Shown here: positions 19,847 to 23,021 of the stretch, in pieces
How positions within the stretch are numbered: the stretch's first letter is position 1
Layout of the letters: each line of letters begins with the position of its first letter
Assembly: GCF_054482525.1 (NCBI RefSeq)
Contig: NZ_CM137006.1
Reading direction: 5' to 3' (one strand)
DNA length: 64,000 nt
Notes under the pieces: generated by a model
The model's input: only the letters and a program-made list of their open reading frames with translations
What the model was told of the DNA's origin: nothing
Database searches by the model: none
Position numbers and translations under genes: made by a program

Positions 19847-20210
19847 ATTATGATAATCACGGAGCAGAATATGCCGGAAGAGAAACTACAGACGCTTTCA
19901 TTGCAGGTCATTAACGGCAGTGAGCTGGAAAGCGGGCGGGCGGCGCGCTGTCTGTTCACACAGCAGGGAAATGTCGGCCATGGCCCCGAATGCCACTGGT
20001 CGGTACAGGATCGTCAGCAGAGCATTCCGGCTCAGGCTTTTACCGTTATCCTGCACGATGGCACATTTTGTCTGCGCCCGCAGACGGCACAACTGTGGCT
20101 GAACCAGGCAAAAGTCACAGCAACATCAGACCTGATACAGCTGCGCCAGGGCGATGAGATCCAGATAGGGCGTCTGATGGTGAGGGTTCATCTGAACCGG
20201 GGAGATATCC

Positions 20211-21549
20211 CATAAGCGCTAACTTAAGGGTTGAACCATCTGAAGAATGCGACGCCTCGGTGCCTCGTTAAGACGATGCCTCGCGTTCTTCAATTGCGTT
20301 TTGTAGGCTGTCAGGGATACTGTCCCACGAATGGCCACCTGTAAGCTCCAGATGACCATTTTTGTTATTCTCCACAACGAGTTAGTTCTTCTTTTCGGAT
20401 CCGGCACTTCTGGGGGGGAAATCCAGCGATGGCTGGATTATGTCGTCAATTAAAAATGCGGCGAGTAGATTAGCAAATATCCACGCTTTCGCGAGTTCAG
20501 GTTCCTTTGCACGCAAAGCATCCAGGTGCAGCAAACTTTTGAGCCGCTTAAAAGCCAGTTCAATTTGCCATCGCAGACGGTAACAATCAGCCACTTGCTC
20601 TGCTGAATATTCATCTTCCGGTAATGATGTTAGCAATAGCACATGGCCCGCTGCTTCCAGCGTTTCCGCCTGAACTACTCGTCCTTTTCGACGATTCTCG
20701 CTGAGCAGTCGGGTTTTACTGATTAATGCTTTTTCGGGAGGAAGTGATACGGCAATGAGACGTGCCGGAAAGGGAGCTCCGGCTTTTTTATTACCTGAAT
20801 TGCCTATCATTACAGTGGTTTCACCGTTCTTACCGCAATCCAGCCCGCGCAGAAAACCCATCATGTCAAAGCGCATTCCTTCTGCAGTTAACCAGCGCAA
20901 TCCTCGCCAGTGAACCCGGACGATATAATCAGCTTCTCCAAAAGCAAGTGAGCGGATACATTCGGGACGCGAACCGAATCCCCGGTCAGCAATGCGTATC
21001 TCGTCTGCCGTTTGCGCAAATCGGTCCAGCCGTTCAGCGTCTCTGCTGTCGGTTAGCTCAAAATCAGTGAACTGACAGGTATGAGGATCATATCCCATAT
21101 GTAGTCGCCATTCAGCGCTGCCGCCCCCGGGCGCACTGATTGCTGTTCCATCGACAAGACGCAATCTCTTTCCGCTTGTACAACCCGTAACTGCGGCGCG
21201 TACAGCAAGTGTTTGTGCGGCAAGTATGCCAAACCAGTCGGCGGCATTCCGCAGCCGCTTCAGGAGAGCCACGTCAGATAATGTTGCAACGTCATGGAGC
21301 TGAGCCCATGCAGTGACTTCACGTAATGACATCCCCCCGGGGCCGTAAGCCAGCCCCAGACGTAGCAGAGTTGCAGCATCACGAATTTCGCGGCGGCGGG
21401 TTAGAGCCCCGGCATTACGTGCCGAAGTATCCAGTTCTTCGGGCTTACCAATATGGGCCAGAATTGCTGACCAGTTATCGTGAGAGTAATTCATCGGCAC
21501 GTTAAATCATATCAGGCGTAATACCACAACCCTTAAGTTAGCGCTTATG
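20211..21549 (-). mobile_element. IS186 (IS4 family) insertion sequence, 1339 bp, with 10-bp target-site duplication
   Basis: Perfect 23-bp terminal inverted repeats CATAAGCGCTAACTTAAGGGTTG at 20211..20233 and, reverse-complemented, 21527..21549. Direct repeat GGAGATATCC at 20201..20210 and 21550..21559. Confidence 0.85.
20382..21500 (-). CDS. IS186 transposase (372 aa)
   Basis: Translation MPMNYSHDNWSAILAHIGKPEELDTSARNAG... recalled as the IS186 transposase. Lies inside the inverted-repeat-bounded element. Confidence 0.85.
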   Translation of the reverse strand: MPMNYSHDNWSAILAHIGKPEELDTSARNAGALTRRREIRDAATLLRLGLAYGPGGMSLREVTAWAQLHDVATLSDVALLKRLRNAADWFGILAAQTLAVRAAVTGCTSGKRLRLVDGTAISAPGGGSAEWRLHMGYDPHTCQFTDFELTDSRDAERLDRFAQTADEIRIADRGFGSRPECIRSLAFGEADYIVRVHWRGLRWLTAEGMRFDMMGFLRGLDCGKNGETTVMIGNSGNKKAGAPFPARLIAVSLPPEKALISKTRLLSENRRKGRVVQAETLEAAGHVLLLTSLPEDEYSAEQVADCYRLRWQIELAFKRLKSLLHLDALRAKEPELAKAWIFANLLAAFLIDDIIQPSLDFPPRSAGSEKKN

Positions 21550-22496
21550 GGAGATATCCCCCATTACGATGAGGAAATGGCCACTCCCGAAACCATCGTC
21601 ACCAATCGCGATATGCTCACGGATACCCTGCTGTCAACGGAGGGTGCGCCACACTATCCGGGAATGACTCACCGGCATCAGCTTGCAGACACCGTGGTAA
21701 ACGGTTTTTCTGCCGATCCACTCCAGGCACTTCAGTCCGAAAGCCTGATTACCACGGGCGATCCGCTTTCAGGCATTGCGGCTGTCCGGCCATCGGCACC
21801 GCTGTCCGATCCGGCAAGTAATGGGGGGATCAATACGCCGTTTATGAATCTGCCGCCCATTTATGCCAGCCCCGGCGATCGTAATGATGACGTCTCTGTG
21901 GCAGAAATGGCGCAACGCCACCTTGCGGTCACCCCCTTACTGCGCGGTCTCGGCGGTTCGCTTACCGTGAGCAATTCCGACGATGCGGATGATTTTCTGG
22001 AAGAGGCCGGACGCACGTTACAGGCCGCAATAAAAGGTCTGCTCGATTTGCAGCAACAGCGTAACAGCCTCTCAGACAAACATTTGCGCCCGCTGGAAGA
22101 TAACCCGCTGCGCCTGAACATGGATTACGCCACCGCGCTCGACGTGATGTTTGCCGAAGGTAAAAGTCCGGTACATCTGGCGGCTCCCGCCGCTGTCAGT
22201 GAAAGCCTGCGCAATGTCCGCCACCACGAAGAAGCTAACCGGGCAGCGATTGTGGAGTCGCTTCGTGTCCTGCTGGATGCTTTCTCACCACAAAATCTGC
22301 TGCGCCGCTTTGTGCAGTACCGCCGCAGCCATGAACTGCGCCAGCCGCTGGATGATGCCGGAGCATGGCAAATGTACAGCCATTATTACGAAGAACTGGC
22401 CTCCGATCGCCAGCAGGGGTTTGAGATGCTGTTTAACGAGGTCTACGCCCAGGTCTATGACCGGGTGCTTCGTGAAAAACAGCGGGAGCCGGAAGC

Positions 22497-23021
22497 ATGA
22501 ACAGGAAGGCGTTTCTGGCCTGCGTGCTGATGTGCGTCATATTAACCGGCTGCGAAACGGCGAAAAAAATCAGCGAGGTGATCAAAAACCCGGATATCCA
22601 GGTCGGGAGCCTGAAGGAGCAACCTTCGGAAATAACCGTCACCCTGCTGACCGAACCGGACACCAATACCAATGCGGAGGGTGAATCAGCCGCCGTGGAT
22701 GTGCAACTGGTGTACCTGACTGACGACTCAAAATTGCTGGCAGCCGACTATGACCAGATAGCCAGTACGCCGCTACCGGATGTGCTGGGTAAAAACTATA
22801 TCGACCACCAGGATTTCAACCTGTTGCCGGACACCATCAAAACCCTGCCGCCGGTAAAGCTGGATGAGAAAACGCAGTTTATTGGTGTCGTGGCCTATTT
22901 CTCCGATGACCAGGCCACTGAATGGAAACAAATCGAGACGGTGGAAGGAACCGGCCACCATTACCGCCTGCTGGTGCATGTACGTCAAAGCAGCATCGAA
23001 ATGAAAAAAGAGGATGAATAA
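22497..23021 (+). CDS. tssJ: T6SS outer-membrane lipoprotein TssJ, 174 aa
   Basis: Signal peptide with lipobox LTGC (MNRKAFLACVLMCVILTGC). Size and position typical. Confidence 0.85.
   Translation: MNRKAFLACVLMCVILTGCETAKKISEVIKNPDIQVGSLKEQPSEITVTLLTEPDTNTNAEGESAAVDVQLVYLTDDSKLLAADYDQIASTPLPDVLGKNYIDHQDFNLLPDTIKTLPPVKLDEKTQFIGVVAYFSDDQATEWKQIETVEGTGHHYRLLVHVRQSSIEMKKEDE

What the first reader, a model, noticed from the sequence alone, without database searches (positions are those of the whole stretch)
19850..22500. IS186 insertion splits the T6SS FHA-domain gene
A 1339-bp element with perfect 23-bp terminal inverted repeats and a 10-bp direct duplication (GGAGATATCC) sits inside the FHA gene. 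The upstream fragment ends ...NRGDIP* and the downstream fragment starts MGDIPHYDEE, so excision would restore one ORF. The intact duplication suggests a recent insertion. The FHA protein is a structural/regulatory T6SS component elsewhere, so this cluster may be inactive or deregulated, and the insertion may also be polar on downstream genes.
Basis: partly seen in the sequence, partly recalled or inferred. Interest (0 to 1): 0.7.

Follow-up and report, generated by a model that had tools for sequence, protein, structure and literature searches.

The report
IS186 insertion disrupting T6SS gene tagH
An ordinary, well-known E. coli jumping gene (IS186) has landed in its favourite kind of target sequence inside tagH, a type VI secretion gene, splitting it in two; the same site has been hit several separate times in other E. 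coli strains, so it is a minor insertion hot spot.

Summary
Window 20211-21549 is a 1339-bp element, 100% identical to IS186A of E. coli K-12. It has perfect 23-bp inverted repeats, an intact 370-aa IS4-family transposase on the minus strand, and a 10-bp target duplication GGAGATATCC (equally readable as 12 bp).

Removing the element and one repeat copy gives one ORF. That ORF is 100% identical in DNA to intact tagH of many E. coli and matches the TagH model TIGR03354 end to end. 2097 of 5426 complete E. coli genomes carry the gene uninterrupted, so it is not a native split.

RefSeq already annotates the same split as two pseudogene pieces in 13 complete genomes. Seven have the window's orientation and six the opposite, on four flank haplotypes. 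That means at least 2 and probably 5 independent insertions. The restored site GGGG-AGATAT-CCCCC fits the published IS186 target GGGG(N6/N7)CCCC and is the only such site in the 64 kb.

The window's closest relatives (PCN033, SCU-102; 99.9%) have the empty site, so the insertion is recent. Loss of T6SS-2 activity and polarity on tssJ onwards are likely but inferred. A Rhs effector gene in the same locus also carries a premature stop. The finding is ordinary and of low novelty.

The parts
18758..19846 (+). tssG (baseplate subunit), the gene immediately upstream of tagH; intact
   Evidence: ORF. RefSeq annotates the collinear gene in RS571 and PCN033 as tssG, starting at 18764.
19871..20215 (+). 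5' fragment of tagH. It encodes 114 aa from the ATG at 19871 (121 aa from the alternative ATG at 19850), contains the whole FHA domain, and ends at a TAA supplied by the IS end.
   Evidence: Pfam FHA covers residues 42-107 of the restored 433-aa ORF. RefSeq annotates the same piece in RS571 as 'FHA domain-containing protein, incomplete, missing C-terminus'.
20201..20210 (.). Left copy of the target-site duplication GGAGATATCC (12-bp reading: 20200-20211)
   Evidence: (D4).
20211..21549 (-). IS186 (synonym IS421), 1339 bp, with its transposase on the minus strand
   Evidence: 100% identical to K-12 MG1655 IS186A. Full-length copies occur in 2146 of 5426 complete E. coli genomes.
20211..20233 (.). 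Terminal inverted repeat at the transposase-distal end
   Evidence: Perfect 23-bp match to the reverse complement of 21527-21549.
20382..21494 (-). IS186 transposase gene (insL), intact, 370 aa
   Evidence: ORF. NCBIfam NF033592 (IS4 family transposase) scores 133 bits against a cut-off of 115. RefSeq lists the identical protein as WP_001300563.1.
20764..20792 (+). Terminator-like hairpin (GCCGGA..TCCGGC followed by TTTTTTATT) inside the IS, on the strand read by the T6SS operon
   Evidence: Pattern scan. RNA fold gives -16.5 kcal/mol, z = -2.2. Function not shown.
21527..21549 (.). Terminal inverted repeat at the transposase-proximal end; its last three bases form the ATG of the downstream ORF
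21550..21559 (.). Right copy of the target-site duplication GGAGATATCC (12-bp reading: 21549-21560)
   Evidence: (D4).
21547..22500 (+). 3' fragment of tagH (linker plus T6SS_FHA_C domain; 317 codons from the IS-derived ATG). No Shine-Dalgarno sequence is visible upstream.
   Evidence: Pfam T6SS_FHA_C covers residues 249-422 of the restored ORF. RefSeq annotates 21550-22500 in RS571 as 'tagH, incomplete, missing N-terminus'.
22497..23021 (+). tssJ. Its start codon overlaps the tagH stop (ATGA), so it is the first gene exposed to any polar effect.

Best explanation
A copy of IS186 transposed into its preferred target, GGGG-N6-CCCC, which lies in the linker just after the FHA domain of tagH. tagH sits in the chromosomal T6SS-2-type cluster of an E. 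coli strain closely related to PCN033. The insertion duplicated 10-12 bp and split tagH into a 114-aa FHA-only stub and a promoterless 3' piece, so tagH is now a pseudogene.

Shown: the identity of the element and of the gene, the clean restoration of the ORF on excision, the empty site in the nearest relatives, and independent recurrence at the same site.

Inferred: the cluster no longer fires, because TagH is required in the V. cholerae system, which has the same local gene order (tssG, FHA gene, tssJ; PMC3166118). Expression of tssJ and the genes after it is probably also reduced, through loss of translational coupling, Rho-dependent polarity across 1.3 kb of untranslated antisense IS RNA, and a terminator-like hairpin inside the IS.
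For: - Element: 100% identical to K-12 IS186A, with the same end structure. Perfect 23-bp inverted repeats and a perfect direct repeat. Intact IS4-family transposase.
- Restored ORF: 100% nucleotide identity to intact tagH in many genomes; 2097 genomes have the gene contiguous. TIGR03354 matched over positions 1-420 of 420 at 340 bits. Pfam FHA and T6SS_FHA_C present.
- Target: GGGG AGATAT CCCCC fits the published preference GGGG(N6/N7)CCCC (PMC6925257). No other match exists in the 64-kb window.
- Recurrence: 7 genomes carry the insertion in the window's orientation and 6 in the opposite orientation, all with the identical duplication. They fall on four flank haplotypes. Differences from the window's flanks start within 30-32 bp of the junctions for haplotype III (both orientations), at 172/204 bp for the RS571 clade, and at 391/162 bp for Br_167.
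- Recency: PCN033 and SCU-102 are 99.9% identical over 24 kb and have the empty site.
- Function: an in-frame deletion of V. cholerae VCA0112, the FHA gene between tssG and tssJ, abolishes Hcp secretion and killing (PMC3166118; also PMC8993066 and PMC10482370).
- Polarity: hairpin followed by a T-run on the + strand at 20764-20792. No sigma-70-like promoter between 19600 and 22700. The tagH stop overlaps the tssJ start.
Against: - No expression or secretion data exist for this strain.
- TagH requirement has not been tested for E. coli T6SS-2, as far as the searched library shows.
- The consensus scan could miss an internal promoter, and a non-sigma-70 promoter would not be detected.
- The hairpin is modest: a 6-bp stem, an 8-nt loop and z = -2.2.
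- In RS571, which carries the same insertion, the genes downstream of tagH (tssJ to tssM) are still annotated intact. So there is no comparative sign yet that they have become dispensable.
- The locus may already have been impaired by the Rhs nonsense codon. That would make the IS insertion a consequence of relaxed selection, not the cause of inactivation.
Confidence: 0.9

Rival explanations
1. The site works as a recurrent, reversible switch. IS186 inserts into and precisely excises from the G4-N6-C4 site in tagH, turning T6SS-2 off and on, and the off state is selected in some lineages, such as clinical (including carbapenemase-screening-type) and poultry isolates.
For: - About five independent insertions at one site, in both orientations.
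- Precise excision of IS186 from the lon hot spot has been observed in experimental evolution (PMC3861542).
- Parallel loss of T6SS in multidrug-resistant E. coli lineages has been described (PMC10711316).
- The duplication is perfect, so precise excision would restore the gene exactly.
Against: - Only 13 of 2247 tagH-bearing complete genomes are occupied. Target preference alone can explain this.
- No revertant or mixed population has been observed.
- The same loci carry other, irreversible lesions: Rhs stop codon in the window, vgrG/Rhs region absent from the RS571 locus, tssG frameshift in Br_167, and a 5' deletion in LR-62-2. This looks like decay, not switching.
Confidence: 0.1
2. The split gene is still functional. 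The FHA-only stub and the C-terminal piece, translated from the ATG created by the IS end, are both made and together support T6SS activity.
For: The insertion lies exactly between the two recognised domains: FHA ends near residue 107, the insertion follows residue 121, and T6SS_FHA_C starts at 249. The IS end supplies an in-frame stop and an in-frame ATG.
Against: There is no Shine-Dalgarno sequence before the ATG at 21547 (AAGTTAGCGCTTATG). No promoter-like site was found. 1.3 kb of untranslated RNA with a terminator-like hairpin lies upstream. PGAP calls both pieces pseudogenes.
Confidence: 0.04
3. The insertion is an assembly artefact, or the two ORFs are native separate genes.
For: None beyond the general risk that IS copies are misplaced in assemblies.
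Against: Both junctions have a perfect target duplication. Identical junctions occur in 7 independently assembled complete genomes, and the mirror-image insertion in 6 more. 2097 genomes carry the gene as a single ORF.
Confidence: 0.01

Closest known systems
IS186A of E. coli K-12 MG1655 (insL1, b0016)
   Same: 100% identical over 1339 bp. Same 23-bp inverted repeats, same 10/12-bp duplication architecture, and a target of the same form, GGGG ATCACT CCCC.
   Different: The K-12 copy lies between dnaJ and hokC, not inside a gene.
[quoted passage not shown] 2001, cited in PMC3861542 and PMC6925257)
   Same: A recurrent, independent IS186 insertion at one G-run/C-run target that causes loss of function. 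A 12-bp duplication is reported at lon (PMC3861542 Table 1).
   Different: The lon hot spot lies in a promoter and is hit at high frequency in laboratory evolution. The tagH site lies in coding sequence, and its recurrence is seen only as about 5 events among natural genomes. I could not read the primary paper.
V. cholerae V52 delta-VCA0112 (FHA/TagH) mutant
   Same: Loss of the FHA gene that sits between tssG and tssJ, in a system with no PpkA/PppA kinase-phosphatase pair. The mutant secretes no Hcp and does not kill (PMC3166118, PMC8993066, PMC10482370).
   Different: It is an engineered in-frame deletion in another genus. Similarity of the two proteins was not measured here, and there is no polarity component.
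Parallel loss of T6SS-2 in E. coli ST410 and ST131 by deletions and IS insertions (PMC10711316)
   Same: Same type of cluster (T6SS-2 with an FHA gene and rhs), inactivated by mobile-element events in particular lineages.
   Different: Different genes and elements are involved. That paper does not mention IS186 or tagH disruption.
tssG::IS200C in E. coli PCN033
   Same: A nearly identical T6SS locus (99.7-100%) disrupted by a different IS one gene upstream.
   Different: PCN033 has intact tagH. The window has intact tssG and vgrG, but tagH::IS186 and a Rhs stop codon.

Membership tests
IS186 (IS4 family insertion sequence) | Near-identity of the whole element to a reference IS186 copy | tested here: met
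   100% identity over 1339 bp to K-12 MG1655 IS186A.
IS186 (IS4 family insertion sequence) | Perfect 23-bp terminal inverted repeats | tested here: met
   20211-20233 against the reverse complement of 21527-21549: 23 of 23.
IS186 (IS4 family insertion sequence) | Single intact IS4-family DDE transposase gene | tested here: met
   370-aa ORF at 20382-21494 (-). NF033592 scores 133.3 bits against a cut-off of 115. Identical to RefSeq WP_001300563.1.
IS186 (IS4 family insertion sequence) | Target-site duplication at a GGGG(N6/N7)CCCC target | tested here: met
   10-bp (or 12-bp) direct repeat. The restored target is GGGG AGATAT CCCCC. The consensus is taken from PMC6925257.
TagH (T6SS-associated FHA protein, TIGR03354) | Full-length match of the restored protein above the curated cut-off | tested here: met
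   340.5 bits against a cut-off of 120.25, profile positions 1-420 of 420.
TagH (T6SS-associated FHA protein, TIGR03354) | N-terminal FHA domain plus C-terminal T6SS_FHA_C domain | tested here: met
   PF00498 at residues 42-107 (E = 5e-4, weak) and PF20232 at 249-422 (E = 3e-41).
TagH (T6SS-associated FHA protein, TIGR03354) | Encoded inside a T6SS core cluster | tested here: met
   Lies between tssG and tssJ, with tssB, C, E, F upstream and tssK, L, H, A, M downstream.
TagH (T6SS-associated FHA protein, TIGR03354) | Uninterrupted coding sequence in this window | tested here: not met
   Split by IS186 after codon 121 of the 433-codon ORF. The window therefore holds a tagH pseudogene, not a functional member.
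TagH (T6SS-associated FHA protein, TIGR03354) | Required for secretion by this E. coli system | not testable with these tools
   Known only by analogy with V. cholerae VCA0112 (PMC3166118).
E. coli T6SS-2-type cluster | Gene organisation with an FHA gene, vgrG followed by rhs, and no kinase/phosphatase genes | tested here: met
   Annotation of the 99.7-100% identical PCN033 locus and of RS571 fits the description in PMC10711316.
E. coli T6SS-2-type cluster | Phylogenetic placement of TssF/TssB in the T6SS-2 clade | not tested
   No tree was built.

The most novel reading that the evidence does not exclude
The GGGG-AGATAT-CCCCC site in tagH is a natural IS186 hot spot. Its repeated occupation, in both orientations and in at least four backgrounds, together with the element's documented ability to excise precisely, would make it a lineage-level and possibly reversible off-switch for E. 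coli T6SS-2. That switch would be selected for, not merely tolerated.
Probability: 0.1. Interest if true: 0.5.

Novelty: already known. Interest (0 to 1): 0.2.

Why it matters
For this genome it means the T6SS-2 cluster should be scored as probably non-functional, since tagH is a pseudogene and a Rhs effector gene is truncated. That matters when predicting competitive or virulence traits from sequence.

More generally, it shows how an IS with a strict target preference can produce the same pseudogene repeatedly in unrelated lineages. Such homoplasy could be mistaken for shared ancestry in comparative genomics. It adds one natural example to the known IS186 hot spots, but it opens no new question.

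Tried and rejected
- I first assumed the window was strain RS571, because ORF coordinates coincide. This was rejected: the window is only about 97% identical to RS571, and its first 12.8 kb do not align with the RS571 region at all. It is 99.7-100% identical to PCN033. No complete genome in the collection is the source.
- I tried twice to read the primary paper on the IS186 target consensus (saiSree 2001); it is not held. I used the consensus as quoted in PMC6925257 and checked it against the K-12 IS186A flanks.
- Searches for any paper linking IS186 to tagH or type VI secretion found nothing relevant.
- A search for strain RS571, to identify its lineage, was unhelpful. Sequence types were therefore not assigned.
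- The sigma-70 promoter scan over 19600-22700 found nothing, so I have no support for an outward IS promoter or an internal promoter driving tssJ.
- I considered and rejected an assembly artefact and a native two-gene arrangement.
- I did not use the large protein-database, structure-prediction or metagenome tools, because the identities were already unambiguous.
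Full report
**1. Observation**

Window 20211-21549 is bounded by perfect 23-bp inverted repeats, CATAAGCGCTAACTTAAGGGTTG. It is flanked by a direct repeat, which the repeat finder reports as 12 bp: GGGAGATATCCC at 20200-20211 and 21549-21560 (family D4). The outermost C and G of the inverted repeats coincide with the flank.

A 370-aa ORF on the minus strand (20382-21494) passes the NCBIfam IS4-transposase model, at 133 bits against a cut-off of 115. The upstream ORF ends ...NRGDIP at a TAA provided by the IS end. The downstream ORF begins MGDIPHYDEE at an ATG made of the last three IS bases.

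**2. Identity of the element**

Aligned with the IS186A copy of E. coli K-12 MG1655, the element is identical at every one of its 1339 positions. The K-12 copy has the same end and duplication architecture, in a target GGGG-ATCACT-CCCC. Full-length copies occur in 2146 of 5426 complete E. coli genomes, with a median of 3 places per genome that has any. RefSeq names the transposase 'IS421 family', and K-12 calls it 'IS186/IS421 family'; these are the same element.

**3. Identity of the interrupted gene**

Removing the element and one repeat copy gives a single 433-codon ORF.

- It matches TIGR03354 (T6SS-associated FHA protein TagH) over profile positions 1-420 of 420, at 340 bits against a cut-off of 120.
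- It has Pfam FHA at residues 42-107 and T6SS_FHA_C at 249-422.
- The insertion follows codon 121, in the linker right after the FHA domain.
- The restored DNA is 100% identical to annotated, intact tagH in many genomes (PCN033, strain 1190, SCU-102 and others).
- 2247 complete genomes have the gene, and 2097 have it contiguous.

The likely true start is the ATG at 19871, which has GGAG upstream and is used by RefSeq (426 aa), not 19850.

**4. Context**

By comparison with annotated genomes, the surrounding cluster is as follows.

| Feature | Position in window |
|---|---|
| Rhs genes | 1907-10641 (-) |
| vgrG | 10708-12816 (-) |
| hcp | 13026-13544 (-) |
| tssB, tssC, tssE, tssF, tssG | 14241-19846 |
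| tagH::IS186 | 19871-22500 |
| tssJ, tssK, tssL, tssH, vasI, tssA, tssM, vasL-domain gene, hcp | 22497-35485 |
| tRNA-Asp (end of island) | 38185-38261 |

This organisation, with an FHA gene, rhs after vgrG and no kinase or phosphatase, is what PMC10711316 describes as T6SS-2.

The window is not from any complete genome in the collection. Its locus is 99.7-100% identical to PCN033, with one mismatch in 14.6 kb downstream of the IS, and 99.9% identical to SCU-102. Both of those have the empty site, so the insertion is recent in this background. PCN033's T6SS has been reported as functional (PMC4882540).

**5. The site is a hot spot**

RefSeq already annotates the same split as two pseudogene pieces in strain RS571.

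- A 300-bp junction probe finds the identical junction in 7 complete genomes.
- Hits that matched only flank plus the 23-bp inverted repeat led to a second set of 6 genomes. These have IS186 at the same position in the opposite orientation with the identical duplication.
- The IS copies are identical, apart from one SNP each in LR-62-2 and MMC-J-0020.

Flank comparison over 1100 bp on the left and 1684 bp on the right gives four haplotypes.

| Haplotype | Genomes | Orientation | Differences from haplotype I | Nearest difference to junctions |
|---|---|---|---|---|
| I | window, VTB96933v | same as window | n/a | n/a |
| I | PCN033 | empty site | n/a | n/a |
| II | RS571, CUVET20-PYO4, JBEHAAB-19-0176, LR-62-2, NRZ105822 (five countries) | same as window | 31 (over the shared region for LR-62-2, whose left flank is deleted) | 172 bp left, 204 bp right |
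| III | MMC-J-0020 | same as window | 50 | 30 bp left, 32 bp right |
| III | APEC O78:H51 group | opposite | 49 | 30 bp left, 32 bp right |
| IV | Br_167 | opposite | 23 | 391 bp left, 162 bp right |

MMC-J-0020 and the APEC O78:H51 representative that was aligned (E19025) differ from each other by a single base. The other four opposite-orientation genomes were grouped with it only by their identical 98.7% junction-probe identity.

At least two events are certain, because both orientations occur. Five is the parsimonious count. Fewer would require recombination tracts barely larger than the IS.

The restored target GGGG-AGATAT-CCCCC fits the published IS186 preference GGGG(N6/N7)CCCC (PMC6925257, citing Chong 1985 and saiSree 2001). 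No other match to that pattern exists anywhere in the 64-kb window; about 2.1 would be expected by chance. Target preference alone explains the recurrence.

**6. Consequences**

These are inferred, not shown.

*Loss of TagH.* In V. cholerae V52, the FHA gene occupies the same position between tssG and tssJ, and the system likewise lacks PpkA/PppA. An in-frame deletion of that gene abolishes Hcp secretion, amoeba killing and bacterial killing (PMC3166118). Later work and a review agree that TagH is required (PMC8993066, PMC10482370). By analogy, the window's T6SS-2 is probably inactive.

*Polarity.*
- Translation stops at 20215, followed by 1.3 kb of untranslated RNA antisense to the transposase.
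- That stretch contains a hairpin plus T-run on the operon strand at 20764-20792 (-16.5 kcal/mol, z = -2.2).
- No sigma-70-like promoter is detected between 19600 and 22700.
- The tssJ start overlaps the tagH stop (ATGA at 22497-22500).
- The IS-derived ATG at 21547 has no Shine-Dalgarno sequence, so the C-terminal piece is unlikely to be made.

*Against over-reading.* RS571, which carries the same insertion, still has its downstream genes (tssJ to tssM) annotated intact. None of this has been measured.

**7. The locus is decaying in other ways**

- In the window, the main Rhs core gene has a single TGG-to-TGA change relative to PCN033 (W1182*, window 7096-7098 on the minus strand).
- The second Rhs gene is in three ORF pieces. 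It is also frameshifted in PCN033.
- PCN033 itself carries tssG::IS200C, a vgrG frameshift and an ISVsa5 insertion, all of which the window lacks.
- The RS571 locus has IS3/IS256 remnants where vgrG and Rhs would be.
- LR-62-2 has in addition lost hcp to the 5' part of tssG.
- Br_167 has a frameshifted tssG.

This pattern fits the parallel loss of T6SS described for other E. coli lineages (PMC10711316). It favours mutational decay at a hot spot over a regulated switch. Precise IS186 excision has been documented at lon (PMC3861542), however, so reversibility cannot be excluded.

**8. Comparison and novelty**

The element is a member of IS186 by every defining feature tested. The restored gene is a member of TagH by every sequence feature tested. 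In this window it is a pseudogene.

The kind of event, an IS knocking out an accessory-system gene, is ordinary. Public annotation already records this exact event as a pseudogene. The only modest addition is that the site is a recurrent natural IS186 hot spot. I found no mention of that in the searchable literature.

**Verdict:** real, correctly interpreted, ordinary. Interest 0.2.

Noticed in passing
window 7096-7098 (minus strand), within Rhs core gene 6394-10641: The Rhs core/effector gene next to vgrG has a single in-frame TGA (W1182*) where the 99.7%-identical PCN033 gene has TGG. The T6SS-2 Rhs effector therefore appears truncated before its C-terminal toxin region. It could be a real second lesion or a sequencing error.
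   Followed up: partly
window 1907-5855 (minus strand): A second Rhs element is broken into three ORFs (524, 239 and 569 aa). Its PCN033 counterpart is also annotated as frameshifted. A mosaic patch at 3497-3668 differs from PCN033, as if exchanged between Rhs paralogues.
   Followed up: partly
window 19105-19109 and 36201-36209, against L006 (PCN033) 18549-19256 and 35011-36341: PCN033 carries IS200C inside tssG and ISVsa5 inside a downstream hypothetical gene. The window is uninterrupted at both sites. The window's vgrG (10708-12816) is intact where PCN033 has a 1-bp deletion (window 11203). Two near-identical loci have thus been hit by different lesions.
   Followed up: yes
window 20764-20792 (+ strand), inside IS186 antisense to the transposase: A terminator-like hairpin, GCCGGAAAGGGAGCTCCGGC followed by TTTTTTATT. 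It would face incoming transcription only when IS186 is in this orientation, so the two orientations seen in nature may differ in polarity.
   Followed up: partly
L009 (LR-62-2, NZ_AP027576.1) 4163-5786: Within the RS571-like clade, one genome has also lost hcp, tssB, C, E, F and the 5' part of tssG, next to an inverted IS3 copy. This shows stepwise erosion after the tagH insertion.
   Followed up: no
window 38185-38261 and 46408-50032: tRNA-Asp (GTC) marks the distal edge of the T6SS island. A second tRNA-Asp, then tRNA-Ala and tRNA-Ile, belong to an rRNA operon on the minus strand.
   Followed up: partly
hits at rpiA, a GTPase-family gene and an ABC permease in many genomes: Other IS186 copies match the probe for 17-25 nt beyond the IS end. 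Their flanks therefore resemble the tagH target (G-run/C-run), which would be consistent with a strict target preference. These flanks were not retrieved or examined.
   Followed up: no
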